Shown here piece after piece: positions 1,773-62,579 of a DNA stretch of 64,000 nt. The notes under the pieces were generated by a model. That model saw nothing but the letters and a program-made list of their open reading frames with translations. It did not search any database and had not been told where the DNA came from. The stretch covers positions 179,979-243,978 of the forward strand of contig JBAZWG010000001.1 in assembly GCA_041660505.1 (NCBI GenBank). Reading direction: 5' to 3'. Both the position numbers and the translations under genes were made by a program. Each line of letters starts with the position of its first letter. The first letter of the stretch is position 1. Source of the stretch: Minisyncoccota bacterium. GTDB lineage: Bacteria; Patescibacteriota; Minisyncoccia; Phycocordibacterales; JACRKE01.

Positions 1773-1999
1773 AAGAACAGTATACTATATATATGTTCCT
1801 AAAGACAAAACGACACAAAAAAATTTTCAGCGTATTCGTCGCGATAATCTGTATTCTTACCGTCTTCAGTATGGTCGCTTTGTATTCTCTCCCGTTTTTG
1901 CGCTAGGTGTGGTACAGAAAAGTCCTTGAGGAAATGGTCTGGCCGAGTGAAGCGAGGAGATCCGAGGACCTTTCCGAGAGGAGCTTTTCTGTACCACAT

Positions 2000-3847
2000 C
2001 TACTTCATCACCTTCAAGAAGACGTCGTGCGGGATGTTTACCACTCCCATCGCTTTCATCTTCTTCTTGCCTTTCTTCTGCTTTTCGCGGAGTTTCATTT
2101 TGCGCGTGATGTCGCCGCCGTACAGGTAGTCTGTGACATCCTTCTTCATACCCGACAAATGGCGTGACGACAAGATGCGCCCGCCGGCCTTGGCCTGGAT
2201 CTTGAAGTCGAACATCTGTCGTGGGATGACATTCTTAATCTTCTCAACAATCTCTTCGGCCTCCTTTTGCAGACGTGCCCGAGAGACAATACGTGAGAAC
2301 GCGGGCACAACTTCATCGGCAATAAGCACCTCAACCTTGATAACGTCAGCCTCGCGCATATCGGCGAAGGTATAAGCTATGGACGCATAACCGGAAGTGA
2401 CGCTTTTAATCTCGTCGAAGAAGTTGCGCATTAGCTCGCGCAAAGGTATCTGAATAGATAATGCCGTACGATGATCGCCGAATATTTCTGTATTCACAAC
2501 CGTCGCCTCATGTTCATGGAAGAGCTGGACGAGCGAGCCCATATATTCCGGCGGGGTTATAATCTGCGCATCCACCCAGCGCTCATACACCTTCTCAATC
2601 TGCGACTCTTCGGGGAAGGCCGTTGCGGAATAGACCTTTTCTCTTGTTCCGTTAGTTCGCTGGATTTCGTAACTAATAGTCGGTGAAGTGATTATGAGTT
2701 CCAGATTAAATTCACGTCTTAATCTTTCTGAAATAATTTCGAGATGCAACATGCCGAGAAATCCGCAACGAAATCCCCTGCCGACAGCCCCTGCCGCTTC
2801 TTCTTCGAAGGAGAGTGCGGAGTCTTGCAAGCGCAATCGCTCAAGCGCTTGGCGGAGCGTCATGAAGTCGTCTTGATTCTCCGGATAGACCGATGCCCAG
2901 ACTACAGGCCGCGGCTCGCTATAGCCCGGCAGGGGCGCAAGTGGTCGTGAGGCTGTGGTAATAGTATCGCCGACGCGCGCGGCGCCGGTCTTCTTGATGC
3001 CGGTCACCAAATATCCGATCTCACCGGGCGATAGCATTTCGCACGGTTTCTTTTGCGGAGAAAAGATCCCGAGCTCCAGCACGGTAAATTGGTCTTTACC
3101 GGCAATGAATGCAAGCGCGTCCTTTTTGTGGATCATGCCGTCTATGACACGAACGTACACTATGAGTCCGGCATGAATATCGTATTCGAAGTCGAAGACT
3201 AGCGAACGGCTGGAATTGAGCGGGAAAGGTCTCTCCTCAGCTTCAGGCAGAGGTGGGTCCTTGCCCACGTCCGACTGCGGAGCAGGAACACGCTCAATAA
3301 CCGCGTCCAAAATTTCTAAAACGCCGGCGCCGGTCTTGCCAGAAGCGGCCAAAATATCTTTCTCTTCGCAATGCAAAAGTTCGATAATCTCCGCCTTTAC
3401 TTCCTCAACTTGCGCAACAGCAAGATCTATCTTGTTAATAACAGGAATTATCTTTACCCCCAATGCCTGCGCGGTGCGAAGTGTCGTTAAGGTCTGGGCC
3501 TGCACACCTTGCGTCGCATCTACAAGGAGTATCGCGCCTTCAACGGCCTGCAGTGCTCGCGAAACCTCGTAAGAGAAGTCGATATGCCCGGGCGTGTCAA
3601 TGAGGTTGAGTTCATAGGAGTTAGAAGTTGGGAGATCTCCTAACTTCTGTTTGTACTGCATCCGCACCGGTTGCATCTTGATGGTAATCCCCCGTTCCCT
3701 TTCCAGATCCATCATATCGAGTACCTGCTCTTTCATCTTGCGCTTCTCGATGGTCCCTGTGAGCTCCAACATGCGGTCCGCCAAGGTTGACTTACCGTGG
3801 TCAATGTGAGCGATTATTGAGAAGTTGCGTATATGCGCAGTATCCAT
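2000..3847 (-). CDS. lepA: elongation factor 4 (LepA)
   Basis: 615 aa. N-terminal GTPase motifs AHIDHGKST, DTPGH and NKID are present, and the C-terminal LepA-specific domain spans the full length. Confidence 0.95.
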   Translation of the reverse strand: MDTAHIRNFSIIAHIDHGKSTLADRMLELTGTIEKRKMKEQVLDMMDLERERGITIKMQPVRMQYKQKLGDLPTSNSYELNLIDTPGHIDFSYEVSRALQAVEGAILLVDATQGVQAQTLTTLRTAQALGVKIIPVINKIDLAVAQVEEVKAEIIELLHCEEKDILAASGKTGAGVLEILDAVIERVPAPQSDVGKDPPLPEAEERPFPLNSSRSLVFDFEYDIHAGLIVYVRVIDGMIHKKDALAFIAGKDQFTVLELGIFSPQKKPCEMLSPGEIGYLVTGIKKTGAARVGDTITTASRPLAPLPGYSEPRPVVWASVYPENQDDFMTLRQALERLRLQDSALSFEEEAAGAVGRGFRCGFLGMLHLEIISERLRREFNLELIITSPTISYEIQRTNGTREKVYSATAFPEESQIEKVYERWVDAQIITPPEYMGSLVQLFHEHEATVVNTEIFGDHRTALSIQIPLRELMRNFFDEIKSVTSGYASIAYTFADMREADVIKVEVLIADEVVPAFSRIVSRARLQKEAEEIVEKIKNVIPRQMFDFKIQAKAGGRILSSRHLSGMKKDVTDYLYGGDITRKMKLREKQKKGKKKMKAMGVVNIPHDVFLKVMK

Positions 3848-5692: not shown

Positions 5693-5711
5693 CTAGAAGG
5701 CCTCGCCTTCT
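5693..5711. repeat. REP-like hairpin copy 3
   Basis: TAGAAGGCCTCGCCTTCTA, identical to copy 1. Confidence 0.8.
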
Positions 5712-5713
5712 AA

Positions 5714-14386: not shown

Positions 14387-14413
14387 GCTTTCGGCGACCC
14401 AAGTTTCAATCTG

Positions 14414-14500
14414 CGGATCGGGTGGGATTCGAACCCACGAGACTATTGCTAGTCTGGCAGTTTAGTAAACTGCTGCCTTCAACCACTCGGCCACCGATCC
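14414..14500 (-). tRNA. type-II (long variable arm) tRNA, Ser-like, nominal anticodon ACU
   Basis: Reverse complement GGAUCGG-UG-GCCGAGUGGUUGAAGGC-A-GCAGU-UUACUAA-ACUGC-CAGACUAGCAAUAGUCUCG-GUGGGUUCGAAUCCCAC-CCGAUCC-G. The acceptor pairs fully. The D-arm is Ser-like. The anticodon loop UUACUAA gives ACU in place of the usual GCU. Confidence 0.7.
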
Positions 14501-14573
14501 TTGCGAATTACCAGACTATCACATTTACCGGCTAGAAAAAAGGTGGAAATAATGCTAGATTTATCAAGTATTT

Positions 14574-14662
14574 GGAGCCGTGGTGGAGTGGTCTAACATA
14601 CCTCTTTGCTAAAGAGGCGGCCGGGTAAAACTGGCCCGCGAGTTCGAATCTCGCCGGCTCCG
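14574..14662 (+). tRNA. tRNA-Ser (anticodon GCU)
   Basis: GGAGCCG-UG-GUGGAGUGGUCUAACAU-A-CCUCU-UUGCUAA-AGAGG-CGGCCGGGUAAAACUGGCCCG-CGAGUUCGAAUCUCG-CCGGCUCC-G. Type II with a long variable arm. Confidence 0.9.
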
Positions 14663-14698
14663 TTTGTAAAATTTTATTAATCTTTATATAATACGTTC

Positions 14699-15593: not shown

Positions 15594-18500
15594 TTGCCGA
15601 ACACTGTTACGAGCATAGCGCGCGTCGCAGGACCGACGACTCCGTATCCGATCGCTCCCCTTTTCGCGATACCATACTTCTCTTGGAATTTCTGGACAGC
15701 TTGAAGTGTCAGATTGCCGAAGTAGCCGGTGACTTGTCCATTCTTATATATAGACTTATCTTGAGCCAATAGTCTCTGGAGCAGAGTAACACTGCTACCT
15801 CTAGAACCAATGACCAACACAGAGTTGATGCTTGAAGCGCCCTTAATAGTTGCGGGTACTCGAACTTGTGTTTGTGCTCTTTTAGAAATTACGGGGTGGA
15901 GAAAAATGAAACTGTCTGCCGGCGTAACTGTGGGTACTACTTTCTCCATCACCTTAGGCTTAGCATCACTAAACAATCCCATCACCCAGCCGTAGATAGG
16001 GCCGTTGTTGCTAGCGAGACGGACCACCTCAGGCACGGCTGTTAATGTGCCGAAGGTCGTGAAGTGGTAAGTTAAGACTTTCGTCTGCAGGCCATTACTG
16101 ATACCGCATTCGCCGAACGGTGTCGGATCTGTCGGAGAGGAATATGTACCGGCGCAAGTTGAGAGCGTCTGCCAAGTGTCTGAGCCGGCCATCTTGAATA
16201 CCATTGTCTTAACAGTGTCGAATGTGAGAGTAACTGCTTTGTCAAATATGAGAGTAACATCGGCTGAACCGATCTGTATAGCATCGCCGACCAAAAAACC
16301 GGATGGCGAAGTGCCAGCACTACTACCCGTAATGGGCGGGGTTATTTTGCCGTCCCAGTCGGTGGGGCCCATTATGGACGTGGCATCAGGGATAGACAAA
16401 CTTGTGCCGGAGACTGCCGAACCGGTAATGACTACTGGAGAGCCAGTCGTACCGGAATTAAGAGTGAAGCCGGTGCCGACTGTGACAGTCTTATCCGCAA
16501 TCGTTTGGGGTTGAGTCAAGTCGACAGAGACAAGCGAACCGCTCGTGAATGCGCCAAGCGGCAAGATTGAACCATTAAGAGTTAAGTTGCCACCAGAGAT
16601 TGATGACAGACTAGTGGACGCAGACAACGGGGAGGATTCGGAAAGGACCAGTGTTGTAATAGAACTCGGCATGGTGACACCGCCAGAAGAAGTTCCTTCG
16701 AACACGACCGGTTCACTGCCACCGGTTACGGTGGTACCGCTCGTCGTCAGGGATTTGAAGTTTCTTGTGGCAGAAGTGTTAACGTTACCGGCAAGGTCGT
16801 TGCAGGTGACAGTCAAAGTATGAGCTGTGCCTGTTATGCCGGTAATTGCGCTAGCAGTATGAGTGGTTCCTCCGGTCGTGGCGAAGGCAACCGAGTCCGC
16901 GCCATCGTATGAATATGTGCAGGTTGCCGCTTCATTGGTTGTGACTTGCGGGGTAGTTGAAGTGGCAATCATAGAACCTTCTGTCGGAGTCGTGATGCTG
17001 ATCGTAGGAGTAGACTTATCGAAGGTGACGCCAGAGCCGGAAGTGATAGCCGTCACCGCAGAAGCGGCGTTGCCAACGATATCTGTCGGAGTGATACTAA
17101 ACTGTATCACCTGTTGGGTGTCGCCGGATATCATCGTGGTCGAGGCCGTCCATGACGTACCGGAGCCTGTAATATTCGCACTGCGGCTGGCAATAAGAAC
17201 AGTAGGAGTTGTAATGCTTTCGTTGGCAGTAAATGTTAAGGTGACGATATCGTTCGTTGTGGCTCTGGAGGCGGTCGTATTGTTGTTCGAGGCGATCGTG
17301 ACAGGAGAAAGCGTCGGGGCAGATTTATCGAAGGTTACATTGGAACCGGAAGTGACAGCGAGCGCGGTCGTGCCGACATTCCCCGCCAAGTCAACCGGTG
17401 TAATGGCAAAGCTAATGGCGCTTTCGGTATCGCCGGTCTCCATCGTCTGCGTGGCGCTCCAGGATGAATTCGAACCTGATACACTGGCCGCTCTGCCAGC
17501 GATGGTTACCGTTGGCGTCTTGATATTCTCATCTGTTGTAAATATGAGCGTCACAATATTGGCCACCTTCGCAAGTGTGTTGGTCGTGTTGTTGGAAGAT
17601 ATCGTGACGGTTGACACTGCCGGTGGGGTTTTGTCGAAGCGAACATTAGAGCCCGACGTGATGGCGGTGACGGCGATGCCGGAGTTGCCTGCCATATCAA
17701 TAGGTGTTGCCGAGAACGTAACTGTGCCGTTCGTGTCCCCCGTCTCCATCGTGGTCGAGGCTGTCCACGACGTGCCAGAGCCAAGGACAGTTGCAGGGCG
17801 ACCGAAGATTGTGACAGTCGGCGTGGCGATGGCTTCAGAACTTGTGAACGTAAGGGTCACAATATCAGCGACTTTTGCGAGCGTGTTAGTAGTATTGTTA
17901 GAAGATATAGTAACAGGCGAGAGGGTCGGTACGGTTTTGTCAAATACGACATTCAGACCTGTTGTGATGGCGGTAACAGCCGAGCCTTCGTTCCCCGCCG
18001 CATCTGTCGGCGTGATGGAAAATGCCACGGCCGTTTCGCTATCGCCGGACTGCATCGTCGTCGAGGCCGTCCACGTCGTACCCGAACCGAGTACAGTTGC
18101 GCTCCTGCCGGCAATGGTTACCACCGGCGTTCGCAAACTCTCGTCTGCCGTGAATGCGAGGGTAACGACATTATCTGTTTTCGCCAGAGTCGTCGATGAA
18201 TTGGATGATGAGATAGTAACAGTTGGCACGGTTGGAACTGTTTTATCAAAAGTGACAGCCGAGCCGTTGGACGTTGCCGTGACGGGCGTGGCCTCATTCC
18301 CTAACGTATCCGTGGCTGTCACCGAGAAGGTAACCACTGCTTCAGTATCTCCTGCTTGCATCGTGGTCGAGGCTTGCCATGTCGTGCCGGAGCCGGTGAT
18401 GTTCGCACCTCTACCATCGATGGTTACAACGGGAGTTTGAATGGATTTATTTGCTGTGAACGAGAGTGTAACGATGTCGTCTGTCTTTGCGCGCGTAGTG

Positions 18501-20617
18501 CTTGAGTTATTAGACGTAATTGTTATTGGCGCGAGCACTGGCGCGGACTTGTCCATCGTAACGCTTGATGAATTGGTTGTGCTTGTGACAGCAGAAGCAA
18601 CATTGCCAGCCGTATCTGTCGCGGTGATGCTGAACGGTATTGCAATTTCCGGATCGTCAGCCGTCATTGTGGTCGAGGCCGTCCAAGACGTGCCGGAGCC
18701 GGTGATGTTCGCACCTCTGCCGGCGATAGTAACAGTAGGGGAAACTATCGCTTCGTTCGCGACGATTGTAAGCGTAACAATACTGCCGATGCCGGCCTTA
18801 GTGGTATCAGAATTGTTTGAAGCTATCGTAACTGTGTCGAGCGTGGGGGGATTGAAGTCGGCATCGGCAGTGGCAGCAGCTGCACCAGTAGAACCATTGT
18901 GACTGCCACCGCTAGTACCGCTACCGCCTGCGGCCGCGACACTCCCGCTCCACGAACCACCACTTGAATAATGAACTGCAACTATTCCTCCCCCGCCACC
19001 ACCGCTAACATTATTAGTCGTGCCCGCACCGCCGGTCGCCGTTATACTGCCAGAACCTGCGAGAGTATTTGTGTATATATAGACACCACCGCCAGCACCA
19101 CCTCCGCCAGTTTGTGAAAATTGGCCACTTGTACCATCAGAACCATTTGCGACTATAGTGCCGTTAAGTGTAAAACTGCCTGTTGCCAAAATTGAAAGAT
19201 GGCCACCGCCCGCGCCACCGCTTGCGTATCCGCCGACTTCACTTCCCGCACCTCCGGAGCCCATGTCTGTAGGGTGAGTCGCGGTATCGTAAGCGACACC
19301 TCCGCCGGCCCCATTGCCACCGTCTCCCCCTCTGCCGCCATGGCCACCTCCGTCACCTTGGACAGTCACTCCCACTCCTCCTCCGCCGGGTCCGTTGCCT
19401 ATTTGCGTGGGACTCCCTCCGGTATACCCCTTACCTGAGATGCTAATGGATCCGCCAGAATCAATTGTAACGTCTGTAATTGTCCAATCTATGTAATTTG
19501 TTTTGGCTGTGGTATTCGTCTTGTGAGTCATTAGACCGCTCGATTTTATCGTGAGAGCATCAAGGGTAATAGTGTTATCAGCGAAGCCAGTACCAACATT
19601 AGAAGATACTCCGTTGTTAGCAACAAAAATTTCACCATATGTCTCTGCGGCTGATTTTGTAAAAATAGTTCCGGCTCCGGCATCCTGACCTCCGCTGTAA
19701 TGAGTACCGCCGTATGCTTTAACGTAAGTGTCAAAGTTGGACGACGTAAACATGTTGTTCGTGGTGTAACGAATTGCAATTCTGCCACCCCCACCACCAC
19801 CGCTAGAGTTGTTCGAGCTACCCACACCTCCGTTTGCGGTGATAGTCCCCGCACCGTTCAGAGTCCCTGTGTTTATTAAAATACTTCCGCCCGCGCCACC
19901 ACCACCGGTTTGAGAAAACTGACCACCTACCGCATTGGAACCATTCGCCGAAATCGTTCCGCCGATTGTTGCCGTACCCGAAATTGTAAGGCTAATAAGA
20001 CCACCTCCTGTGCCACCGCTTGCATAACCTCCAACACCACTTCCGGAACCGCCCGATCCCATATCTGTCGGTGTAGAGGCAGAATCATAGACCGTACCTC
20101 CGGCACCACCATCTCCCTTACCGCCAAATCCTCCATGGCCACCACCGTTGCCCTGGATGTCTGCGCCTCCTACGCCGCCGCCGGGGCCGGAACCGGAAGT
20201 CAAGCCGCCACCGCCCGCATAACCCAAACCGGCCGCAGTGAGAGTGCCGTTGATGGTCGTGCTCGCGGCGGTAATATTTACACTGCCGTAACTAGCGCCG
20301 TCATACGCTTTGACAGAAACCGTGCCGGAAGGAATTGAGAACCCTGCTATCCCGCAGTGAGCGCCGGCGATAGCGATTCCCGCCGTGCCGTCCAAGTCCC
20401 ACGTGTCGCCATTGGTTGGTGTCCAGTCCTGGTCTACGCCATCTACGGCGTGATCATTCGCACATGTGTCGGCCTTACTTATAAAAGGGGTTAGTGCGAA
20501 TTTATGGATAGCGACGGCAACAACAGCCACCGCCAAGACGTGGACAAAAATATGGAATGCCGGACACCTTTCCGCATCAATAAAGTGGCGCGACAGCGTT
20601 GTTGGATATTTCGCCAT
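15590..20617 (-). CDS. giant cell-surface protein: N-terminal TM anchor, Gly-rich beta-helix-like region, ~9 tandem ~95-aa Ig-like repeats, C-terminal peptidoglycan-binding-like domain
   Basis: 1675 aa. The repeated unit is TVTISSNNSxTTLAKxxxIVTLxFTxxExIxTPxVTIAGRxAxxxGSGTxWxASTTM..GD....FSITPxDxAGNxG. Repeat units of about 285 bp are visible in the DNA at 16860-18900. GG[AS]G-rich stretches are present. The C-terminus has LLQRLLAQDKSIYKNGQVTGYFGNLTLQAVQKFQEKYGI. Confidence 0.7.
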   Translation of the reverse strand: MAKYPTTLSRHFIDAERCPAFHIFVHVLAVAVVAVAIHKFALTPFISKADTCANDHAVDGVDQDWTPTNGDTWDLDGTAGIAIAGAHCGIAGFSIPSGTVSVKAYDGASYGSVNITAASTTINGTLTAAGLGYAGGGGLTSGSGPGGGVGGADIQGNGGGHGGFGGKGDGGAGGTVYDSASTPTDMGSGGSGSGVGGYASGGTGGGLISLTISGTATIGGTISANGSNAVGGQFSQTGGGGAGGSILINTGTLNGAGTITANGGVGSSNNSSGGGGGGRIAIRYTTNNMFTSSNFDTYVKAYGGTHYSGGQDAGAGTIFTKSAAETYGEIFVANNGVSSNVGTGFADNTITLDALTIKSSGLMTHKTNTTAKTNYIDWTITDVTIDSGGSISISGKGYTGGSPTQIGNGPGGGGVGVTVQGDGGGHGGRGGDGGNGAGGGVAYDTATHPTDMGSGGAGSEVGGYASGGAGGGHLSILATGSFTLNGTIVANGSDGTSGQFSQTGGGGAGGGVYIYTNTLAGSGSITATGGAGTTNNVSGGGGGGIVAVHYSSGGSWSGSVAAAGGSGTSGGSHNGSTGAAAATADADFNPPTLDTVTIASNNSDTTKAGIGSIVTLTIVANEAIVSPTVTIAGRGANITGSGTSWTASTTMTADDPEIAIPFSITATDTAGNVASAVTSTTNSSSVTMDKSAPVLAPITITSNNSSTTRAKTDDIVTLSFTANKSIQTPVVTIDGRGANITGSGTTWQASTTMQAGDTEAVVTFSVTATDTLGNEATPVTATSNGSAVTFDKTVPTVPTVTISSSNSSTTLAKTDNVVTLAFTADESLRTPVVTIAGRSATVLGSGTTWTASTTMQSGDSETAVAFSITPTDAAGNEGSAVTAITTGLNVVFDKTVPTLSPVTISSNNTTNTLAKVADIVTLTFTSSEAIATPTVTIFGRPATVLGSGTSWTASTTMETGDTNGTVTFSATPIDMAGNSGIAVTAITSGSNVRFDKTPPAVSTVTISSNNTTNTLAKVANIVTLIFTTDENIKTPTVTIAGRAASVSGSNSSWSATQTMETGDTESAISFAITPVDLAGNVGTTALAVTSGSNVTFDKSAPTLSPVTIASNNNTTASRATTNDIVTLTFTANESITTPTVLIASRSANITGSGTSWTASTTMISGDTQQVIQFSITPTDIVGNAASAVTAITSGSGVTFDKSTPTISITTPTEGSMIATSTTPQVTTNEAATCTYSYDGADSVAFATTGGTTHTASAITGITGTAHTLTVTCNDLAGNVNTSATRNFKSLTTSGTTVTGGSEPVVFEGTSSGGVTMPSSITTLVLSESSPLSASTSLSSISGGNLTLNGSILPLGAFTSGSLVSVDLTQPQTIADKTVTVGTGFTLNSGTTGSPVVITGSAVSGTSLSIPDATSIMGPTDWDGKITPPITGSSAGTSPSGFLVGDAIQIGSADVTLIFDKAVTLTFDTVKTMVFKMAGSDTWQTLSTCAGTYSSPTDPTPFGECGISNGLQTKVLTYHFTTFGTLTAVPEVVRLASNNGPIYGWVMGLFSDAKPKVMEKVVPTVTPADSFIFLHPVISKRAQTQVRVPATIKGASSINSVLVIGSRGSSVTLLQRLLAQDKSIYKNGQVTGYFGNLTLQAVQKFQEKYGIAKRGAIGYGVVGPATRAMLVTVFGN

Positions 20618-22722: not shown

Positions 22723-22813
22723 CTATCGCACGGCACGTGCGAAACTTGCTTTATCCTACAGATTTCCGTCAATAACGCAAACAGCGGAGGTTCAACCTCC
22801 GCTGTTCTGTTGT

Positions 22814-22857
22814 CACCGAGGAGAGACCTCCGCTTTTCCGGAGGACTCACCTCGCCG
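22814..22857. repeat. ~45-nt GC-rich palindromic element (CCGAGGAGAGACCTCCG-loop-CGGAGGACTCACCTCGG family), copy 1
   Basis: Imperfect hairpin immediately 3' of groEL. Related copies are at 47953-48000, 48014-48062 and 62533-62579. Confidence 0.7.
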
Positions 22858-22907
22858 TCTTTAATTTTATTATTCCTAACTCCTATCTCCCATCTCCTAA
22901 CTCCTCT

Positions 22908-26219: not shown

Positions 26220-26312
26220 ATTACAAAGCAGAATTGGAGAATTTAGGAATTTGAGAATTAGGGAATATTCTTAAATTCTAAAATTCTTTAATTCATAAAT
26301 TCTGTCAGAATT

Positions 26313-28121
26313 TTGATCAATTTTCATTTTTTGGAGTCTTTATCGCGCAAGTACGACGAGTTCGGAAAGGCGCTTGCTCCCAAGTCAAAAGCGGGTAAAA
26401 AAATATACGACTTCTTCGGCTATTTCTCTTTGAAAGAAAGATTGGCTTTTTATGTTCTGCTTTTAATTTTCCTCATGAGCTTCGGACTTTTGGTAAAAAA
26501 GCTTAATGATATGATTACGGTTGAGGTGCCTCTCTTCGGCGGAACACTGCGCGAGGGTATCGTGGGCATTCCGCGTTTTAGTAATCCCGTTCTGGCCTCG
26601 AGCGACGTGGATAAGGATGTGGCGAGCCTTATTTATTCCGGCCTTATGCGCGTCGGGTCAGAAGGCAAACTAATCCCCGATCTGGCAGAAAATTATTCCG
26701 TATCTCCAGACGGTCTTACATATACTTTCGTTCTTAAGAAGAATCTTGTATTCCATGACGGGAGCAAGCTCTCGAGTGCCGACGTCGCCTATACTATCAA
26801 TCAAGTTAAGAATCCGATTTTCAAAAGTCCTCGCGGAGCGGCTTGGAGCGGAATCAATATAGAAACTCCCGACGACCTAACTGTTGTGTTCCATCTCAAA
26901 TCTCCTTACGCACTCTTCCTCGAAAGTACGACGTTGGGAATACTCCCGAAAAGTTTATGGAAGAAGACGAATGACGAGACATTCCCCTATAACGAGCTTA
27001 ATCTAGCGGGCGTCGGTTCCGGACCATACAAAGTGGTGAATGTTGCAAAAAATAAAGACAGCGTACCAACAGTATTGACACTCACTGCGTTTAACTCTTT
27101 CACGCTTGCCAAGCCTTATATCAAGAACATCAAACTGTACTTCTACGCGAATGAAGAGGCACGGTCTGCCGCTTATGGAGCCGGTTATATAGACACACTC
27201 TCCGGCATCACAGCGGAGGATGTGGGGGCACTTAACACGGGCAAAGGTCACATAGTCTCATTCTATCTCCCAAGAATCTTCGCCGTGTTCTTCAATCAAA
27301 ACCAAGAATCTGCCTTCACTTACCGTGAGGTTCGCGCAGCACTCGACGCTTCGCTCGATAAAGAAGCCATTACTCGTACCGTGCTTCATGATTATGGCAA
27401 CGCGATAAACGGCACGATTCCGCCGGGTTCGTTCGGCTACGCGAGCAGTACCAATCCTATAAAAGATCAGCCGGCACGCATCGCAAGCGCCCAAGCCCTA
27501 CTGCAACAGAACGGTTGGAATAAAGTTGGCGGAGTTTACCAAAAGAAGTTTACCGGCGACCCTAAGAAAAAGAGTAGTTCGACGGTCGTCTCTCTCGCCT
27601 TCTCTATTTCTACGGCAGACACGCCGGAACTCAAGCGGACAGCAGAACTGATTCGAGACACGTGGAACAGCCTTGGCGCAAAAGTCGAGCTCAAGGTATA
27701 TGAGATCGGCGACTTGAATCAAAACGTCATTCGTCCTCGCAATTTCGATGCGTTATTCTTCGGCGAGATTGTCGGCCGCAACCCCGACCCATTCTTCTAC
27801 TGGCATTCGTCGGAACGCGCCGACCCGGGACTCAATATCGCCATGTACGCAAACCCAGCCGTTGATAAGCTTGTAGACAGCATTCGTGCCAGCGCATCCG
27901 ACAGCGACCGACTAGACAAGCTCCGCAAACTGGACACAGCAATAAAGCGCGACCAGCCGGCTTCATTCATATATGCGCCACAATACATTTATCTTATTAA
28001 TAATCGGGTGCGAGGAGTGACGCCGATGTCTCTCACGACACCCAATGAAAGATTCTCTAATATCTACACCTGGTACATCGATACCGAAAGAGTGTGGAAG
28101 ATTTTTACTAAACAGAATTAA
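26313..28121 (+). CDS. ABC transporter substrate-binding protein, family 5 (peptide/nickel)
   Basis: SBP_bac_5-like sequence throughout. The N-terminal TM anchor is reached from a TTG start. The true start is uncertain (an internal ATG at MSFGLL is possible). Confidence 0.7.
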   Translation: MINFHFLESLSRKYDEFGKALAPKSKAGKKIYDFFGYFSLKERLAFYVLLLIFLMSFGLLVKKLNDMITVEVPLFGGTLREGIVGIPRFSNPVLASSDVDKDVASLIYSGLMRVGSEGKLIPDLAENYSVSPDGLTYTFVLKKNLVFHDGSKLSSADVAYTINQVKNPIFKSPRGAAWSGINIETPDDLTVVFHLKSPYALFLESTTLGILPKSLWKKTNDETFPYNELNLAGVGSGPYKVVNVAKNKDSVPTVLTLTAFNSFTLAKPYIKNIKLYFYANEEARSAAYGAGYIDTLSGITAEDVGALNTGKGHIVSFYLPRIFAVFFNQNQESAFTYREVRAALDASLDKEAITRTVLHDYGNAINGTIPPGSFGYASSTNPIKDQPARIASAQALLQQNGWNKVGGVYQKKFTGDPKKKSSSTVVSLAFSISTADTPELKRTAELIRDTWNSLGAKVELKVYEIGDLNQNVIRPRNFDALFFGEIVGRNPDPFFYWHSSERADPGLNIAMYANPAVDKLVDSIRASASDSDRLDKLRKLDTAIKRDQPASFIYAPQYIYLINNRVRGVTPMSLTTPNERFSNIYTWYIDTERVWKIFTKQN

Positions 28122-28192
28122 AGAATTTCAGAATTTAGGAATTTAATTCATTCTTACATTCTCATATTCTTTAATTCATAAATTCCGTTAAC

Positions 28193-30133
28193 ATGGAACC
28201 ACAGCAACCAAAAAAATTCGTGCCCCAAGCGGCACGCGCGTTCGTTTCTGATGCACCTGCCCGCCATACCTTCGGCAAGTCGATGGCAGGCGGGCCAGCG
28301 CCACGGCGCGCGCCGATGCGTAAACAAACGTCCGTACGTCCGCGCCGAGAGCGTGGTCCGCAACACCGCTCACAACCGGCAAGCAGTCGACCGCACCATG
28401 AACGACATGACCAGGGTGAAGAAGAAAAGAAAAAGAAGGTGATCATTCCGCCGCTCGCGACGGACAGTATCCGCATCATTCCCTTGGGAGGCGTAGAGGG
28501 TGTCGGCATGAACATGACCGTCGTCGAATTTAATGGCGACATCTTCATTGTGGACGCTGGCTTCATGTTCCCAGGCGAGGACTCCCCCGGCGTCGACTAC
28601 ATCATCCCCGATGTCACCTATCTCGAAGAACGCAAGGATAAGATTCGTGGCATCTTCATCACCCACGGCCACTTGGACCACATCGGCAGTCTCCCTTACA
28701 TCATGCAAAAGTTGGGCAACCCGCCGGTCTACACGCGCCTCTTCGGCGCTATGATGATTAAGAAGCGCCAGGCCGAATTCCCCCAGATCCCGATGCCGGA
28801 CCTGCGCATCGTCGAGACCAACAGTCGCGTCAAGGCCGGCAATACTTACGTAAGGTTCTCTAACGTCACCCATACGATTCCGGATTCGATGTGCATAATT
28901 ATAGAGAGTCCTTGGGGCAATCTGCTCTTCATGGGCGATCTCAAGGTAGACCACATCGACCAAGTACCGCTGCCATCGGAGGTCAAGCTCTACACCGAGC
29001 TCGGCAAAGAGAATAATCTCTTCATGGCCGGCGACTCGACCAATACCCACAAGCCCGGCTGGTCCGACTCCGAGACGACAGTGCGCGAGAACTTGCGCGA
29101 GATCGTCCGTACCGCCAAGGGCCGCCTCATCATGGGTACCTTCGCGTCACTAGTCGACCGCGTTATTTACGTCATCACCGAGGCGGAGAAGATGGGCAAG
29201 AAGGTGATTATCGATGGCCGCGGCATGCGTGAATCAATTGAGATCGCTACCGAGCTTGGCCGAGTCAAGATGCAACCGGGCACAATAATCCCCGTAGAGG
29301 AAGTCGACAACTATCCGCCCGATCGCATCCTCATCATGGCGACCGGCGCGCAGGCGGATGAATATTCATCTCTCCAACGCATGTCGATCAAGACGCACAA
29401 ATATCTCAAGCTCCACAAAGGCGACACCATCGTGCTGTCGTCATCCGTAATTCCTGGCAACGAGAAGGGTGTGGAAATCTTGAAGGACAACCTCTCCCGC
29501 CAAGGTGCCAAGATAATCCATTATCGTCTCAAAGACGTGCACTCTTCCGGCCACGCCTACGGCGACGAGGCGACGTGGTTATACAAAATGGTCAAACCCA
29601 AATTCTTTATGCCGGTGCACGGTGGCCACTACATGCTCCGCATGCACGAGGAGGTGGCCATCGGCGCGGGCATCAAGCCCGAGAACATCGCCGTGCCGGA
29701 CAACGGTTCGATTGTCGAAATAACGGGTGGTGGTAAGAAGATTCATATATTAAAAGAAAAAGCACCGATAGACATGGTCATGGTGGACGCCATGGGCGAT
29801 GGCGCCGGCGTGCACGAGCTGGTCATCCGTGACCGCAAGGTCTTGGCCGAGGACGGCATGTTCGTCATCATCGCAACAATCGACGTCAAGACCGGCAAGC
29901 TCCGCCAATCCCCCGACATCATCTCGCGCGGCTTCGTCTATCTTAAAGAATCGCGCGAATTGTTAAAAGAAGTCCGCGGCCTCATTAAGAAGACAATAGA
30001 AAGTGTGACGGTAGATATGCACCCAATAAATATAGACTACGTGAAAAATCTGGTCAGAGAAAAAACCGGCCGCTTCCTCCTCCAAAAAACCCGCAAGCGC
30101 CCGATAATCCTGCCGGTCTTAATCGAGGTGTAA
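28193..30133 (+). CDS. rnj: ribonuclease J
   Basis: Metallo-beta-lactamase motif HGHLDHIG plus beta-CASP and RMMBL regions. There is an approximately 90-aa Arg/His-rich low-complexity N-terminal extension. Confidence 0.9.
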   Translation: MEPQQPKKFVPQAARAFVSDAPARHTFGKSMAGGPAPRRAPMRKQTSVRPRRERGPQHRSQPASSRPHHERHDQGEEEKKKKVIIPPLATDSIRIIPLGGVEGVGMNMTVVEFNGDIFIVDAGFMFPGEDSPGVDYIIPDVTYLEERKDKIRGIFITHGHLDHIGSLPYIMQKLGNPPVYTRLFGAMMIKKRQAEFPQIPMPDLRIVETNSRVKAGNTYVRFSNVTHTIPDSMCIIIESPWGNLLFMGDLKVDHIDQVPLPSEVKLYTELGKENNLFMAGDSTNTHKPGWSDSETTVRENLREIVRTAKGRLIMGTFASLVDRVIYVITEAEKMGKKVIIDGRGMRESIEIATELGRVKMQPGTIIPVEEVDNYPPDRILIMATGAQADEYSSLQRMSIKTHKYLKLHKGDTIVLSSSVIPGNEKGVEILKDNLSRQGAKIIHYRLKDVHSSGHAYGDEATWLYKMVKPKFFMPVHGGHYMLRMHEEVAIGAGIKPENIAVPDNGSIVEITGGGKKIHILKEKAPIDMVMVDAMGDGAGVHELVIRDRKVLAEDGMFVIIATIDVKTGKLRQSPDIISRGFVYLKESRELLKEVRGLIKKTIESVTVDMHPINIDYVKNLVREKTGRFLLQKTRKRPIILPVLIEV

Positions 30134-41452: not shown

Positions 41453-42529
41453 CTATATCACAAGTTTATGTTGCCTCAAAACAGCTTCGACATCTTGAGA
41501 ACTTTCTGTTTGCATAAGCGCAATTTTTAGTTCTTTAGCGTGTATGTGCCCTGCCATGTACGAGCCGAAGTGTTTACGCATAACAGCAAATGGCTTTATG
41601 CCTTTATACAATTTTTCGAAGAGTCCGGCATGCTCAAGCATTACTTTCGCGCGTTCTTCATAAGGCAAATCCTCGCGCGAAACTTTCGGATTAAACAGCC
41701 ACGGATTACCGAATATGCCACGCCCGATCATTACGCCGTCTACGCAATATTTCTCGGCCATTGTTTTGGCCTCGTTCATGTTTCTTACATCACCGTTGCC
41801 GATGCATAAAATTCCGCCAGCTGGCGGATTTACCGCCGCATGAATTAATTTTGCCGCCTTGGCAATTTCATCCCAATGCGCCGGCACTTTCGACATCTCT
41901 TTCTTTGTCCGCCCGTGAATAGTGATTGCTGCCGGTTCTGACTTTATAATTTCACTTATCCATTTTTCTGTAATAATACTGTTATAACCTATGCGGGTCT
42001 TAACCGACACCGGTATCCGCCGGCTGGCGGACATCGCGCCCTCCTTCGCCGCTTCAATAACTTCACGCGCAAGTTCCGGGTTATTTATCAAATCCGCGCC
42101 GGCTTTCTGCTTATTCACAGACTTGTCCGGGCAACCCATATTGATGTCCACACCGTCGAAGCCAAGCTCACTCGCCAATTTTGCACAATAATAAAAGTTC
42201 TCCGGTTTCGAACCGAAAAACTGCGCCACTATCGGCCGCTCGCCTTCGCTGTATCGCAAATCCAAAAGTAATTTTTCTCTTGCCTTTTCATGTACAAGAC
42301 CGTCGCAGGATACTTGCTCGGTCCAAAATACAGTTTCGCCTTGAGGAAAAGGGTGTTTGGAAATGGTCTGGCCGAGGCGCAAGCCGAGGAGATCCGAGGA
42401 CCTTTCCAAAGACCTCTTTTCGAGAGGAAAACTATATTTTGCCACTATTTGCCGAAATGCCGCGTCGGTGACATCAGCCATTGGGGCCAATGCAAAGAAA
42501 GGTTTAGGTAATTTAGTCCAGAAAGACAT
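41453..42529 (-). CDS. dus: tRNA-dihydrouridine synthase
   Basis: N-terminal LAPMADVTDAAFRQI plus TIM-barrel motifs and a catalytic Cys region. The reading frame carries an approximately 34-aa insertion (SFPLEKRSLERSSDLLGLRLGQTISKHPFPQGET) encoded by a repeat element. Confidence 0.85.
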   Translation of the reverse strand: MSFWTKLPKPFFALAPMADVTDAAFRQIVAKYSFPLEKRSLERSSDLLGLRLGQTISKHPFPQGETVFWTEQVSCDGLVHEKAREKLLLDLRYSEGERPIVAQFFGSKPENFYYCAKLASELGFDGVDINMGCPDKSVNKQKAGADLINNPELAREVIEAAKEGAMSASRRIPVSVKTRIGYNSIITEKWISEIIKSEPAAITIHGRTKKEMSKVPAHWDEIAKAAKLIHAAVNPPAGGILCIGNGDVRNMNEAKTMAEKYCVDGVMIGRGIFGNPWLFNPKVSREDLPYEERAKVMLEHAGLFEKLYKGIKPFAVMRKHFGSYMAGHIHAKELKIALMQTESSQDVEAVLRQHKLVI

Positions 42530-42554
42530 AAGTTACCTATTATGCAATATTTTT

Positions 42555-42582
42555 AGCCTTTACGCTAGGTCGGTTGCGGTGA
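42555..42582. repeat. 28-bp direct repeat CCTTTACGCTAGGTCGGTTGCGGTGAGC, copy 1
   Basis: Identical to 44118-44145. Together they flank the SDR + wHTH-Cas2-like segment. Confidence 0.85.
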
Positions 42583-42611
42583 GCCAGTTTAAATTTTGGG
42601 CAGCGTATCTC

Positions 42612-43352
42612 TTACTGATATCCGCCATCTACCACGAGAGTTGCACCCGTGATGAAACTTGCGTCATCTGAGCAGAGGAATAGGGCCGCATTTGCTATCT
42701 CTTCCGGCCGACCCCATCTACCCAAGGCAATCTTCTCTGTTTCGCTTTTAACAAGCTCTTGTGGCAAGTCCTTGTTTATTTCTGTATCAACCCAGCCTGG
42801 AGCTATTGAGTTTACCCTGATTTGAGGGGCTAGAGCTTGAGACATGTTCTTCGTCAGACTAATGACTCCTGCTTTTGAGGTATCGTAGTCTGCCGAATCC
42901 GGACTTAATGAATCAATGCCGTTTGTTGAAGAAATATTAAGGATCGACGCACCAACCCTATTTTTCATATGTGGCACGGCATATTTAGCACAAAGAAAAG
43001 TTCCTATCAAATTGACGCGGAGGACTCGTTCCCATTGTTCAACAGTTTTTGTAAATATGGGAATATCCCAAACGATACCAGCATTATTAACCAAAATATC
43101 AATTGCCCCGAAGTGCTGTGTCGTTTCGCTAATCATTCTTTTCACATCGTCTTCGCTCGCCACGTCCGCCTGGATTGCAATAGCACCTACGCCCAAACCT
43201 CGTATCTCTGCCACCACTTCATCGGCAGCTGATTTGTTTTTTACATAGTTCACCACGATACTGGAACCTTCTTTGGCAAAAACTATAGCTGTTGCCTTGC
43301 CGATTCCTCTGCTTGAACCCGTAATAAGTGCTACTTTGTTTCTTAATTTCAT
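42612..43352 (-). CDS. SDR family oxidoreductase (FabG-like)
   Basis: TGSSRGIGKA Rossmann motif, NNAG and a catalytic YxxxK-type region. Confidence 0.8.
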   Translation of the reverse strand: MKLRNKVALITGSSRGIGKATAIVFAKEGSSIVVNYVKNKSAADEVVAEIRGLGVGAIAIQADVASEDDVKRMISETTQHFGAIDILVNNAGIVWDIPIFTKTVEQWERVLRVNLIGTFLCAKYAVPHMKNRVGASILNISSTNGIDSLSPDSADYDTSKAGVISLTKNMSQALAPQIRVNSIAPGWVDTEINKDLPQELVKSETEKIALGRWGRPEEIANAALFLCSDDASFITGATLVVDGGYQ

Positions 43353-43438
43353 CTAGGATATGTTAATTTCTTCCTTGCAAGTATAGCATCGATGTAAACA
43401 CTGTACCACAAACGAGCCAGAACATATCACTACATTTT

Positions 43439-43463
43439 TAGACGGCCGTCACGATTTGTAGTG
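43439..43463. promoter_or_regulatory. palindromic site TAGACGGCCGTC...TTGTAGTG upstream of the regulator gene
   Basis: GACGGCCGTC is self-complementary. A second copy (TTAGACGGCCGTT...TGTAGTA) lies at 44076-44100 after the gene. An extended -10 TGATATAAT sits 6 nt before the ATG, suggesting a leaderless start. Confidence 0.4.
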
Positions 43464-43493
43464 TTTTTACATCGAGTTTGATATAATTAATCT

Positions 43494-44054
43494 ATGGCGA
43501 TTAAATACACCTACAAGGGTGCTCCGGAAATTATTCTGACACTTCTCGACCAATCAAAAGACTGGGATACTCGAGAATTCCTGACCATGGCAGTCAATGA
43601 GCTACAGCCACTCATTGTTAGAAAAAAATACACCGCAAAACATTATGCCTCCCTTTCGGTAGAACGACTCTGCTCGCAGGGACTCGTCATCAAAACAGTC
43701 CGAGGCAAGAAGGAATTCTACATGATTACCAAAATGGGTGAACGTAAGCTCAGAGACACACAAAGAAAGAAGATAAAAATTACGAAGACAGTATGGGACG
43801 GTAAATGGCGAATGGTAATTTTTGATATCAAGGAGACAAAACGAAAAAAACGAAATCTTTTGCGCAGAGAGCTTAAGGCCCAGGGTTTCGAGAGACTTCA
43901 GCAAAGCGTCTGGATATATCCTTATGAATGTTACGACTACGTTGCACTGCTTAAAACATCGTTCGCGAGCAACGCAGAGATTCTGTATGCAATCGTCGAG
44001 AAGCTTGAGAATGACGAATGGCTACTTAAAAAGTTCGGGCTGAAAGGAAAATAA
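43494..44054 (+). CDS. wHTH (PadR-like) N-domain fused to a Cas2/VapD-like C-domain, hypothetical regulator
   Basis: N-terminal LSVERLCSQGLVIKTVRGKKEFYMITKMGERKL is wing-like. C-terminal KWRMVIFDIKETKRKKRNLLRRELKAQGFERLQQSVWIYP matches the Cas2 N-terminal pattern (xVLVxYDI...RRR..L...L...G.RVQ.SVF). No CRISPR array is nearby. Confidence 0.45.
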   Translation: MAIKYTYKGAPEIILTLLDQSKDWDTREFLTMAVNELQPLIVRKKYTAKHYASLSVERLCSQGLVIKTVRGKKEFYMITKMGERKLRDTQRKKIKITKTVWDGKWRMVIFDIKETKRKKRNLLRRELKAQGFERLQQSVWIYPYECYDYVALLKTSFASNAEILYAIVEKLENDEWLLKKFGLKGK

Positions 44055-44117
44055 AATACTACAAAATTAGACGGCCGTTCAAAAATGTAGTAAATCCGGG
44101 TTTCAAGAATTATGACC

Positions 44118-44145
44118 TTTACGCTAGGTCGGTTGCGGTGAGCTC
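44118..44145. repeat. 28-bp direct repeat, copy 2
   Basis: Encodes the last 8 codons and stop of the Clp-like gene (ELTATDLA*). Confidence 0.85.
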
Positions 44146-47763: not shown

Positions 47764-47952
47764 GACAAAACTCCTTTTCCAGCCAATGGGAATGATTCCC
47801 AAAAGCCCTAATTCCTCCGTGGGTGGAGACGTACTGTTCCATGTTCCCCCAGAGGCGAGTGACCGTATCAAGGTTGTTATAGCATACTGCCAACAAGAGA
47901 ACAACTCGACCCCAGTGGCTCATTTCCCACCATTTGACCCGAGGATGCTTGG

Positions 47953-48000
47953 TCGCCGAGGAGAGACCTCCGCTTTTACCGGAGGACTCACCTCGGCGAC
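47953..48000. repeat. GC-rich palindromic element, copy 2
   Basis: GTCGCCGAGGAGAGACCTCCGCTTTTACCGGAGGACTCACCTCGGCGAC. Confidence 0.7.
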
Positions 48001-62484: not shown

Positions 62485-62532
62485 GTAATTAGAAAATCCT
62501 AACATAATATTAGGATTTTCGGAAGCCTTTTT

Positions 62533-62579
62533 GTCGCCGAGGTGAGACCTCCGCCCTTGCTGGAGGACTCACCTCGGCG
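62533..62579. repeat. GC-rich palindromic element, copy 4
   Basis: GTCGCCGAGGTGAGACCTCCGCCCTTGCTGGAGGACTCACCTCGGCG. Confidence 0.7.

What the first reader, a model, noticed from the sequence alone, without database searches (positions are those of the whole stretch)
42340..42441. RPE-like palindromic element inserted in frame into dus; second copy just after lepA
A core of about 50 nt, GAAATGGTCTGGCCGAG..AAGC.GAGGAGATCCGAGGACCTTTCC, occurs at 1929-1976 and 42359-42407. The first copy is intergenic, directly 3' of lepA, and is flanked by 14-bp inverted repeats GTGGTACAGAAAAG / CTTTTCTGTACCAC. The second copy lies inside the dus coding sequence exactly where Dus proteins normally have a short loop (FRxIVxxxGAGLxxTEMVS). 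It adds about 34 residues (SFPLEKRSLERSSDLLGLRLGQTISKHPFPQGET) without breaking the frame. This in-frame palindromic element insertion is analogous to Rickettsia RPEs.
Basis: partly seen in the sequence, partly recalled or inferred. Interest (0 to 1): 0.65.

Follow-up and report, generated by a model that had tools for sequence, protein, structure and literature searches.

The report
In-frame hairpin repeat inside CPR genes
The extra 30 residues in this bacterium's Dus enzyme come from a roughly 100-base hairpin-forming DNA repeat that is read straight through by the ribosome, and the same repeat, apparently undescribed, sits in frame inside dozens of DNA-repair and tRNA-enzyme genes across a whole class of ultra-small (CPR) bacteria.

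Summary
Two copies of one palindromic element lie at 1904-2002 (touching the lepA stop codon) and 42332-42433 (inside dus). The dus copy puts 34 residues where relatives have 4 (net +30) without breaking the frame. 118 of 120 Dus homologues lack the element, so it is an insertion, not ancestral.

It belongs to a large family. An exact 15+9-nt core (GGTCCTCGGATCTCC...GGCCAGACC) occurs in at least 120 places in Paceibacteria-type CPR genomes; the scan was cut at its limit.
- Of 126 copies, 89 lie inside long ORFs, never breaking the frame. 74 are sense-oriented and use all three codon phases.
- Hosts are almost all tRNA- or DNA-handling enzymes: PheT, LigA, TruB, PolA, UvrABCD, Tgt, MnmA, Dus.
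- The flanking arms differ in every copy but co-vary.
- The strand antisense to the host gene folds better in 102 of 123 copies.
- Close LigA relatives are empty, filled in either orientation, or carry decayed copies.

Best reading: a non-autonomous palindromic mobile element, behaving like Rickettsia RPEs and tolerated as a disordered loop. Its core is probably the recognition module for an unknown trans factor. I found no transposase, no target duplication and no literature or Rfam match. A functional nucleic-acid motif is not excluded.

The parts
42332..42433 (-). Element copy 2: a complete 102-nt hairpin inside dus. It is read in frame as S33...T66 (SFPLEKRSLERSSDLLGLRLGQTISKHPFPQGET). The top strand (GGTCC...) is the minus strand, which is dus sense.
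   Evidence: Fold; covariance-model hit 42341-42426 at 72.3 bits; DNA alignment to insert-free dus genes L004 and L005; AlphaFold2 pLDDT below 50 for residues 37-63.
42365..42402 (-). Invariant core plus apical stem-loop of copy 2: GGTCCTCGGATCTCC-TCGGCTTGCGCCTC-GGCCAGACC.
   Evidence: Exact pattern match. Core helices P1, P2 and P3 with two 3'-side bulges were predicted independently by RNAalifold.
41453..42529 (-). dus (tRNA-dihydrouridine synthase), the host gene. Its frame is intact through the element.
   Evidence: ORF listing; Pfam PF01207; matches to solved Dus structures, which skip residues 35-70; AlphaFold2 mean pLDDT 85.6.
1904..2002 (-). Element copy 1: a 99-nt hairpin directly 3' of lepA, in the same orientation as lepA. 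The lepA stop codon (2000-2002) lies in the outermost stem. TA dinucleotides sit at 1904-1905 and 2001-2002.
   Evidence: Inverted repeat I2; fold at -53.9 kcal/mol; covariance-model hit 1912-1995 at 70.6 bits; sequence.
1936..1970 (-). Invariant core plus apical stem-loop of copy 1: GGTCCTCGGATCTCC-TCGCTTCACTC-GGCCAGACC.
   Evidence: Exact pattern match.
2000..3847 (-). lepA, the gene whose 3' end abuts copy 1. It is not interrupted.
   Evidence: ORF listing. In 15 other family members a sense-strand gene likewise stops 27-36 nt 5' of the core.

Best explanation
The dus insert and the lepA-adjacent copy are two members of a large family of small (about 90-110 nt), protein-less, hairpin-forming repeat elements. 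The family is spread through Paceibacteria-type CPR (Patescibacteria) genomes.

Anatomy. Written on the strand that folds best (the window + strand), each element has:
- a long arm whose sequence is specific to each copy;
- a bulged pyrimidine;
- an invariant core, in which GGUCUGGCC pairs with GGAGAUCCGAGGACC. It forms P1 (GGUCU/GGACC, ending in a U.G pair), a GA bulge, P2 (GG/CC), an AGAU bulge, and P3 (CC/GG);
- a variable apical stem-loop.

Shown:
- The elements sit mostly inside protein-coding genes. They always have a length and phase that keep the reading frame open, so they are translated as an extra loop. In Dus this is a roughly 30-residue disordered loop between helix 1 and strand 2.
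- Copies are gained, lost, inverted and decayed on short evolutionary time scales.

Inferred:
- The element is selfish, non-autonomous mobile DNA, comparable in behaviour to Rickettsia RPEs and to MITEs.
- The conserved core is the recognition module for a trans-acting, structure- and strand-specific factor that acts on the folded 'bottom' strand. This would most simply be a single-strand-DNA recombinase or nuclease, encoded elsewhere and not identified here.
- Only insertions that stay in frame, in permissive surface loops of lowly expressed information-processing enzymes, survive selection.
- The arms stay complementary by compensatory or palindrome-correcting change.
For: Family and anatomy:
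- The arms differ in every copy yet 83% of cells are paired against 62% in shuffles. There are 960 double-change cells against 352 +/- 17, and slid controls give 33-60%.
- RNAalifold independently returns the same core helices.
- Diverged copies carry compensatory changes inside core helices: G-C to A-U, C-G to U-A.

Translated, not removed:
- 89 of 126 copies lie in through-ORFs of at least 450 nt, and none breaks the frame.
- All three sense phases are used (36, 23 and 15 copies), plus 15 antisense copies.
- In the AlphaFold2 Dus model (mean pLDDT 85.6) only residues 37-63 fall below 50.

Insertion, not ancestral:
- 118 of 120 Dus homologues lack it.
- The only other carrier, P0003, nests among insert-free sequences.

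Mobility and turnover:
- The same arm subfamily, AAAGCTCCTCTY..|core|..CTCAYAGGACTTT, occurs in lepA-3' (window), dus (L002), LigA, PolA (L039) and L078.
- Of the 120 closest LigA sequences, 33 are empty, 26 have an intact core (14 sense, 12 antisense) and 51 are decayed.
- LigA genes with nearly identical flanks (2 differences in 59 nt) are empty (L126), sense (L127) or antisense (L118).

Strand-specific structure:
- The bottom strand folds better in 102 of 123 copies with arms only and in 111 of 123 with the full element (p about 1e-15 to 1e-20).
- A:C mismatches on the top strand number 172 against 79 G:T.
- The bias follows the element, not the host gene: 62:12 in sense copies, 11:4 in antisense copies, 29:5 in copies outside long ORFs.
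Against: - No mobilising enzyme was found. Relatives of the window's GIY-YIG and Y1-transposase-like proteins occur in only 2 of about 120 element loci each, and no viral contig carries the element.
- No consistent target-site duplication. There is TA...TA at the lepA copy only, and nothing clean in dus or LigA.
- No two copies in one genome share their distal arms, which simple copy-and-paste does not predict. In genome JAIFWI01 all 9 copies recovered have a near-identical 34-nt core with apical loop but unrelated distal arms.
- The same protein sites recur across hosts only 37-60% identical, and host genes are strongly biased to tRNA and DNA enzymes. Both could instead indicate function.
- The better-folding strand is antisense to the host mRNA. 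In the window it is the leading-strand template. That is not what the IS200/IS605 single-strand model predicts.
Confidence: 0.6

Rival explanations
1. The element is a functional cis-acting nucleic-acid module, an RNA or single-strand-DNA structure bound by a conserved CPR factor. Selection would keep it inside a regulon of DNA-repair and tRNA-enzyme genes, with translation of the element as a tolerated by-product.
For: - The 24 core nucleotides are identical in three codon phases and both orientations, at the same protein sites, in hosts only 37-60% identical.
- 27 of 31 host families handle tRNA or DNA.
- There is a strong orientation bias: 74 sense against 15 antisense in coding sequence, and 15 against 6 for copies just 3' of genes.
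- Structural hallmarks of folded nucleic acids are present: a conserved U.G pair, tandem G.A, purine-rich internal loops, and compensatory changes.
Against: - The apparent invariance is partly by construction, because the scan demanded an exact core. Of 12 bystander copies found near scan hits, 9 had variant cores.
- In LigA, 30% of close relatives lack any insert and 46% carry decayed versions.
- Only 2 of 120 Dus homologues carry it.
- Near-identical genes differ in presence and orientation.
- The better-folding strand is antisense to the mRNA.
Confidence: 0.22
2. The element is an intervening sequence, removed from the mRNA or bypassed by the ribosome as with T4 gene 60 or yeast-mitochondrial 'byps', so that the extra residues are never made.
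For: It is a very stable hairpin inside coding sequence. CPR genomes are known, from my own knowledge, to carry unusual insertions in rRNA genes.
Against: All 89 in-gene copies keep the host frame open, with 3n length and no stops, in whichever phase they sit. A removed or bypassed element would be under no such constraint; roughly 10% would be open by chance. No Rfam ribozyme or intron match was found.
Confidence: 0.03
3. The segment is an ordinary lineage-specific protein loop of Dus, a protein-level feature, and the lepA-adjacent similarity is incidental.
For: The same Dus site carries other, unrelated loop extensions in some CPR lineages (SKYGGQDIGDGS...GGPDV in P0007, P0058, P0082, P0098).
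Against: - Conservation is at nucleotide level, in a non-coding copy and in three phases and both orientations across at least 31 host families.
- 118 of 120 Dus homologues lack it.
- AlphaFold2 gives no structure for it.
Confidence: 0.02

Closest known systems
Rickettsia palindromic elements (RPE-1 to RPE-10; Ogata et al. 2000, 2002, as summarised in PMC10969869)
   Same: Both are short palindromic repeats in a reduced genome. Both are inserted in frame into many unrelated housekeeping genes and are translated. Both are compatible with the protein fold because they land in surface loops. No transposase is encoded in either.
   Different: - RPE families each encode a conserved peptide in one frame. 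Here the same nucleotides are read in three phases and on both strands.
- Only a core of about 24 nt (38 nt with the apical loop) is conserved. The arms are copy-specific and co-vary.
- The host is CPR/Paceibacteria.
- There is a strong host-gene bias towards tRNA and DNA enzymes.
- The same sites recur across distant genomes.
MITEs and other bacterial interspersed palindromes (Correia, ERIC, BOX, RUP)
   Same: Small, non-coding, with inverted-repeat arms, multi-copy, non-autonomous, co-transcribed with neighbouring genes, and sometimes intragenic.
   Different: - No consistent target-site duplication was found.
- No parent insertion sequence with matching ends was found.
- The termini are the variable part and the centre is the conserved part, the reverse of a MITE.
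REP/REPIN elements with RAYT (Y1/HUH) transposases
   Same: Hairpin repeats thought to be handled as single-stranded DNA by a trans-acting domesticated transposase. A Y1_Tnp-like gene is present in the window (3903-4529).
   Different: - REPs are extragenic, with conserved stems and a 5' GTAG.
- The window's Y1-like gene is flanked by a different hairpin, TAGAAGGCCTCGCCTTCTA.
- That gene family is not linked to the element elsewhere.
Integron attC sites
   Same: Imperfect palindromes whose structure, rather than sequence, is conserved. Both have unpaired or bulged bases and a marked bottom-strand folding preference.
   Different: - attC sites lie at cassette 3' ends next to an integron integrase.
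- Their conserved boxes are at the base of the hairpin (RYYYAAC / GTTRRRY), not at the apex.
- They are not embedded in frame in housekeeping genes.
Inteins and homing elements
   Same: Both occupy the same conserved sites of replication, repair and tRNA-related enzymes across distant genomes. Distribution among close relatives is patchy.
   Different: The element has no splicing or endonuclease domain. It stays in the mature protein as a disordered loop.

Membership tests
Rickettsia palindromic elements (RPE) | Palindromic repeat of roughly 100-150 bp able to form a stable hairpin | tested here: met
   Hairpins of 99 and 102 nt; -53.9 and -45.0 kcal/mol; z -6.8 and -3.6. Arms co-vary across 124 copies.
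Rickettsia palindromic elements (RPE) | In-frame insertion into ORFs of unrelated genes | tested here: met
   89 of 126 copies lie in through-ORFs belonging to 31 host families, and none breaks the frame.
Rickettsia palindromic elements (RPE) | Each family encodes a conserved peptide, read in a fixed frame (PMC10969869) | tested here: not met
   Sense phases are used 36, 23 and 15 times, plus 15 antisense copies. This gives at least five unrelated peptide series, such as VLGSP.., RSSDL.., GPRIS.., GLAE..GDPRT.
Rickettsia palindromic elements (RPE) | Sequence homology to RPE consensus sequences; Rickettsiales host | not tested
The host is Candidatus Paceibacterota, so common descent is unlikely.
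MITE | Small, non-coding, with terminal inverted repeats | tested here: met
   About 90-110 nt; complementary arms in every copy.
MITE | Flanking target-site duplication | tested here: inconclusive
   TA...TA flanks the lepA copy. No consistent flanking dinucleotide was seen across 123 copies, and there are no clean boundaries in dus or LigA.
MITE | Cognate autonomous insertion sequence with matching ends | tested here: inconclusive
   None was seen in about 1 Mb of flanking sequence. Relatives of the window's GIY-YIG and Y1 proteins are each present in only 2 loci. Whole genomes were not searched.
REP/REPIN-RAYT | Extragenic location, and RAYT gene flanked by the same REPs | tested here: not met
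   Most copies are intragenic. The window's Y1_Tnp-like gene is flanked by a different repeat, D7.
Integron attC | R''/L''-L'/R' boxes at the hairpin base, at cassette ends near intI | tested here: not met
   Conserved nucleotides are apical and the base of the hairpin is variable. Copies lie in housekeeping genes.
Any Rfam RNA family | Match to a curated covariance model | tested here: not met
   No hit at gathering thresholds. The permissive search gave only spurious hairpin hits such as MIR1094 at 26 bits against an 80-bit cutoff.

The most novel reading that the evidence does not exclude
The element is not a decaying MITE but a new kind of protein-less 'homing hairpin'. In this reading it is a structure-defined module, recognised on its bottom strand as single-stranded DNA, or as a cDNA or antisense RNA, by a dedicated CPR factor. 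That factor repeatedly inserts, flips and excises it at fixed hot spots inside essential tRNA- and DNA-enzyme genes. The element would then possibly double as a shared regulatory or processing signal for that gene set.
Probability: 0.2. Interest if true: 0.88.

Novelty: new variant of a known kind. Interest (0 to 1): 0.72.

Why it matters
In-frame, translated selfish palindromes have so far been treated as a peculiarity of Rickettsia. This result shows the same life-style on a much larger scale, in an unrelated radiation of ultra-small bacteria.

Several features are unexplained by current MITE or REP models:
- The centre is invariant and the ends are variable.
- Selection is visibly at the nucleic-acid level: three phases, two orientations and a strand-specific fold.
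- The same loops of LigA, PolA, PheT, TruB, Tgt and UvrC are hit again and again.

Practical consequences:
- It explains many 'CPR-specific insertions' in conserved proteins.
- It explains why some domain models fail. The LigA zinc-finger Pfam hit is absent from most of the long, insert-sized LigA proteins.
- It gives a compact marker for Paceibacteria.
- It defines a testable target, the core hairpin, for finding a new structure-specific recombinase or binding protein.

Tried and rejected
- Rfam at gathering and permissive thresholds gave nothing real.
- Literature searches by topic and by the literal core sequence found no description.
- The third 17-mer hit at 45640 is chance similarity inside the ClpB-like ORF.
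- I looked for a link to the neighbouring Y1_Tnp-like and GIY-YIG genes. It is rejected: those genes carry their own repeat and are absent from about 98% of element loci.
- IMG/VR has no copies, so I found no evidence of a phage vector.
- A target-site duplication search using outermost MFE pairs was uninformative, because the fold over-extends.
- I compared the core by eye with K-turn, sarcin-ricin/loop E, T-loop, group II domain 5, hairpin and hammerhead ribozymes and SRP domain IV. None fits. These comparisons are from memory and are not tests.
- The top-strand core GGAUCUCCUC resembles the 16S 3' end GGAUCACCUCC (from memory). I did not pursue this and it may be coincidence.
- Replication- or transcription-linked deamination cannot explain the strand asymmetry. 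It predicts excess G:T on the leading, sense strand, the opposite of what is seen.

Full report
OBSERVATION

The two copies are real.
Chance expectation is 0.12 and 0 matches.
- Both regions are long imperfect palindromes that fold far better than shuffled controls.
- Copy 1 spans 1904-2002. Its outermost stem contains the lepA stop codon at 2000-2002.
- Copy 2 spans 42332-42433 inside dus. dus is 41453-42529 on the minus strand, 358 aa, PF01207.
- A covariance model built later finds only these two copies in the window (72.3 and 70.6 bits; next best 19 bits).
- The partial hit at 45640 is chance.
- The organism is a Candidatus Paceibacterota (CPR) genome with a 719-kb contig. An independent Logan assembly carries the identical gene.

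IS IT AN INSERTION?

Yes.
- Solved Dus structures align to residues up to about 34 and again from about 71. They skip the segment between.
- In an alignment of 24 homologues, the window protein has 34 residues where relatives have GKPD. DNA alignment to the syntenic, insert-free genes L004 and L005 shows a net +90 nt.
- Of the 120 closest Dus sequences, only the window protein and P0003 carry the element.
- P0003 is 82-85% identical to insert-free P0002 and P0005. The window protein is about 70-72% identical to all of them. The history therefore needs two gains, or one gain and several losses.
- P0003's insert is the same element read in another codon phase: AVQKAPLGKVLGSPRP... against ...LERSSDLLGLRLGQT.... 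Its arms match the window's lepA copy rather than the dus copy.
- AlphaFold2 models the TIM barrel confidently (mean pLDDT 85.6, pTM 0.85). Only residues 37-63 fall below 50, as a coil between helix 23-33 and strand 66-74.

THE FAMILY

- By record title, nearly all hits are CPR genomes: Paceibacterota, Nomurabacteria, Adlerbacteria, Parcubacteria, Minisyncoccia, and MAGs labelled Saccharibacteria. About 75 genomes are represented, with up to 9 copies each among the hits.
- No copy was found in IMG/VR.
- Aligned on the better-folding strand, the anatomy is:
  - a copy-specific arm;
  - A, then a bulged Y;
  - GGUCUGGCC;
  - a variable apical stem-loop, often CC-GA-[stem]-GA-GG;
  - GGAGAUCCGAGGACC;
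  - U, then the complementary arm.
- The arms use all four Watson-Crick pair types at nearly every position. 83% of cells are paired against 62% in shuffles. There are 960 double-change cells against 352 +/- 17. Slid controls give 33-60%.
- RNAalifold independently recovers P1 (GGUCU/GGACC with U.G), a GA bulge, P2, an AGAU bulge and P3.
- Bystander copies found with the model show compensatory changes inside P1 and P3. They also reveal a variant class that lacks the AGAU bulge and P3 but keeps GGUCUGG...CC(C)GAGGACC.
- Caveat: the invariance of the core among the 124 aligned copies is by construction of the search. Of 12 bystander copies, 9 had non-canonical cores.

CODING CONTEXT

- Of 126 exact-core copies, 74 lie in long through-ORFs with the GGTCC... 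strand as sense. They use phases 36, 23 and 15 times. Another 15 are antisense, and 37 are not in through-ORFs.
- No copy shifts or stops a host frame. This argues against splicing or ribosomal bypass, and for plain translation.
- Of the 37 remaining copies, 15 sit immediately 3' of a sense-strand gene whose stop codon lies 27-36 nt 5' of the core. lepA, at -32, is one of these. Six sit after an antisense gene and 6 lie between convergent genes.
- Several copies lie between co-directional genes of one operon. Reading the translations by eye, examples are groES-groEL and rpmE-prfA.
- The 89 in-gene copies fall into 31 host families:
  - PheT (11 copies, 3 sites), LigA (10), TruB (8), PolA (7, one site), UvrC (6, 3 sites), Tgt (6), Dus (4, 2 sites), IleS-like (4), UvrD (3), MnmA (3);
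  - CCA-adding enzyme, GatA, TrmD, PheS, UvrB and RsmI;
  - DnaE, ArgS, TsaD, RecG, RecJ, UvrA and YchF;
  - a few others.
- These hosts are overwhelmingly tRNA- or DNA-handling enzymes.
- The same alignment columns are hit in different genomes, in different phases and orientations. Host identities at shared sites range from 37% to 93%.

WHICH STRAND MATTERS

- The strand complementary to the host mRNA folds better in 102 of 123 copies (arms only) and 111 of 123 (whole element). P-values are about 1e-15 and 1e-20.
- On the sense strand, A:C mismatches outnumber G:T by 172 to 79. Other mismatches are mostly pyrimidine:pyrimidine. On the bottom strand these are G.U-compatible and purine:purine pairs.
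- The bias follows the element, not the host gene: 62:12, 11:4 and 29:5 in sense, antisense and non-through-ORF copies.
- In the window, negative GC skew on the + strand makes the minus strand the leading strand. That strand carries the genes and the element's top strand.
- Deamination bias would therefore predict the opposite asymmetry. I conclude that the bottom strand's fold is an intrinsic, selected property of the family. I cannot say whether it acts as DNA or RNA.

TURNOVER

I took the 120 closest LigA proteins to an element-bearing query and classified their zinc-finger loops:
- 33 are short and canonical.
- 26 encode intact-core peptides (14 sense, 12 antisense).
- 51 are long loops with recognisably degenerate versions: GPRTS, SPRIS, GLAPLLPRPRT and others.
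- 10 could not be parsed.

DNA of five very close relatives shows empty (L126, L128), sense (L127) and antisense (L118, L129) states. L118 and L126 differ at only 2 of 59 upstream nucleotides. L118 also retains a solo arm remnant beside the inverted full element. No clean target duplication is visible.

One arm subfamily, AAAGCTCCTCTY...|core|...CTCAYAGGACTTT, occurs at unrelated loci: lepA-3', dus of L002, LigA, PolA of L039, and L078. Beyond it lie 6-10 bp of locus-specific yet complementary distal stem.

Together these results indicate real mobility, with gain, inversion, decay and loss. They do not indicate a universally maintained motif.

INTERPRETATION

Best-supported reading (confidence about 0.6): a non-autonomous palindromic mobile element that behaves like RPEs. 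Copies survive only where they stay in frame, in permissive loops of low-abundance enzymes.

The core is most simply the recognition module of an unidentified trans-acting, structure- and strand-specific factor. That step is inferred, not shown.

Unexplained points:
- No transposase or target duplication was found.
- Distal arms are unrelated between copies that share an identical core within one genome.
- The same sites recur.
- Host functions are biased.

The main rival (about 0.2) is a functional nucleic-acid motif. The ancestral-loop, intron or bypass, and chance or artefact readings are effectively excluded.

COMPARISON WITH KNOWN SYSTEMS AND NOVELTY

- It works like an RPE or MITE. It fails the RPE criterion of a conserved peptide in a fixed frame (PMC10969869), and the MITE criteria of a target duplication and a parent insertion sequence are unmet or inconclusive.
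- It is not a REP/RAYT element. The window's Y1-like gene has its own, different hairpin repeat.
- Its structure-over-sequence conservation and bottom-strand bias recall integron attC sites. Its host spectrum and site recurrence recall inteins. Both are analogies only.
- No Rfam family and no paper in the searchable library matches, including a search for the literal core strings.
- I rate it a new variant of a known kind. There is an appreciable chance that the mechanism is new.

Noticed in passing
window 3884-3913, 4557-4586, 5124-5153, 5691-5720: Four copies of a different short hairpin repeat, TTCTAGAAGGCCTCGCCTTCTA, spaced 673, 567 and 567 nt apart. They bracket the Y1_Tnp (IS200-like, RAYT-like) gene at 3903-4529 and the next small genes. 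This looks like a separate REP/RAYT-type system.
   Followed up: partly
window 42545-42584 and 44104-44143; also 43429-43467 / 44053-44091: - A 40-nt direct repeat (88% identical) duplicates the 3' end of the ClpB-like gene (ELTATDLA*) just upstream of dus.
- The two repeat copies flank a 1.56-kb two-gene insertion: an SDR at 42612-43352 and a 186-aa ORF at 43494-44054.
- That insertion is absent from the clpB-dus junction of relatives L002, L004 and L005.
- The 186-aa ORF is itself bracketed by 39-nt inverted repeats, ACTACA...TGTAGT.
   Followed up: partly
window 22809-22858, 47949-47998, 62530-62579: A second GC-rich palindromic repeat family of about 50 nt, GTCGCCGAGGWGAGACCTCCG...CGGAGGACTCACCTCGGCGAC, folding at about -40 kcal/mol. 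One copy lies next to tRNA-Thr.
   Followed up: partly
window 14413-14500 (-) and 14573-14663 (+): Two divergently oriented tRNA-Ser genes. ARAGORN assigns the first the unusual anticodon ACT.
   Followed up: no
Dus homologues P0007, P0018, P0034, P0058, P0071, P0082, P0098 (alignment A1): A different extension of about 10-25 residues, SK(Y/F)GG(R/Q)D(I/M)GDGS...GGPDV, occupies exactly the same Dus loop in other CPR lineages. P0046, P0009, P0063 and others have inserts after GNPWLF, where elements L017 and L115 also sit. These loops are general insertion hot spots.
   Followed up: partly
L118 (LigA, about 1433-1600) and L129 (LigA): L118 has a solo arm remnant, CAAAGCTCCTCTCGTAAAAG, in sense orientation directly 5' of a complete element in antisense orientation. 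L129 and L044 carry a further unrelated insert of about 100 nt just downstream, in the same zinc-finger loop.
   Followed up: partly
genome JAIFWI01 (L016, L024, L030, L049, L076, L079, L107, L116, L117): All nine copies recovered from this genome share a near-identical 34-nt core plus apical loop (CCCGCGCAGACGGG on the bottom strand; one copy has a variant loop). They also share about 8-10 nt of inner arm, but their distal arms are unrelated. Simple copy-and-paste does not explain this.
   Followed up: partly
window 26230-26313 and 28114-28196: AT-rich 8-nt-period repeats (AGAATTTN) in inverted orientation, about 1.8 kb apart (repeat families D5, D8, I3).
   Followed up: no
element core, top strand (e.g. 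window 42379-42392 minus strand): The top-strand core GGAUCUCCUC resembles the 3' end of 16S rRNA, GGAUCACCUCC (recalled from memory). The bottom strand would then be an extended Shine-Dalgarno-like GAGGAGAUCC. This is untested and may be coincidence.
   Followed up: no
window 17003-18754: Repeats with a 306-nt period (families D1, D2) inside a large coding region. They suggest a protein with tandem domains of about 102 residues.
   Followed up: no
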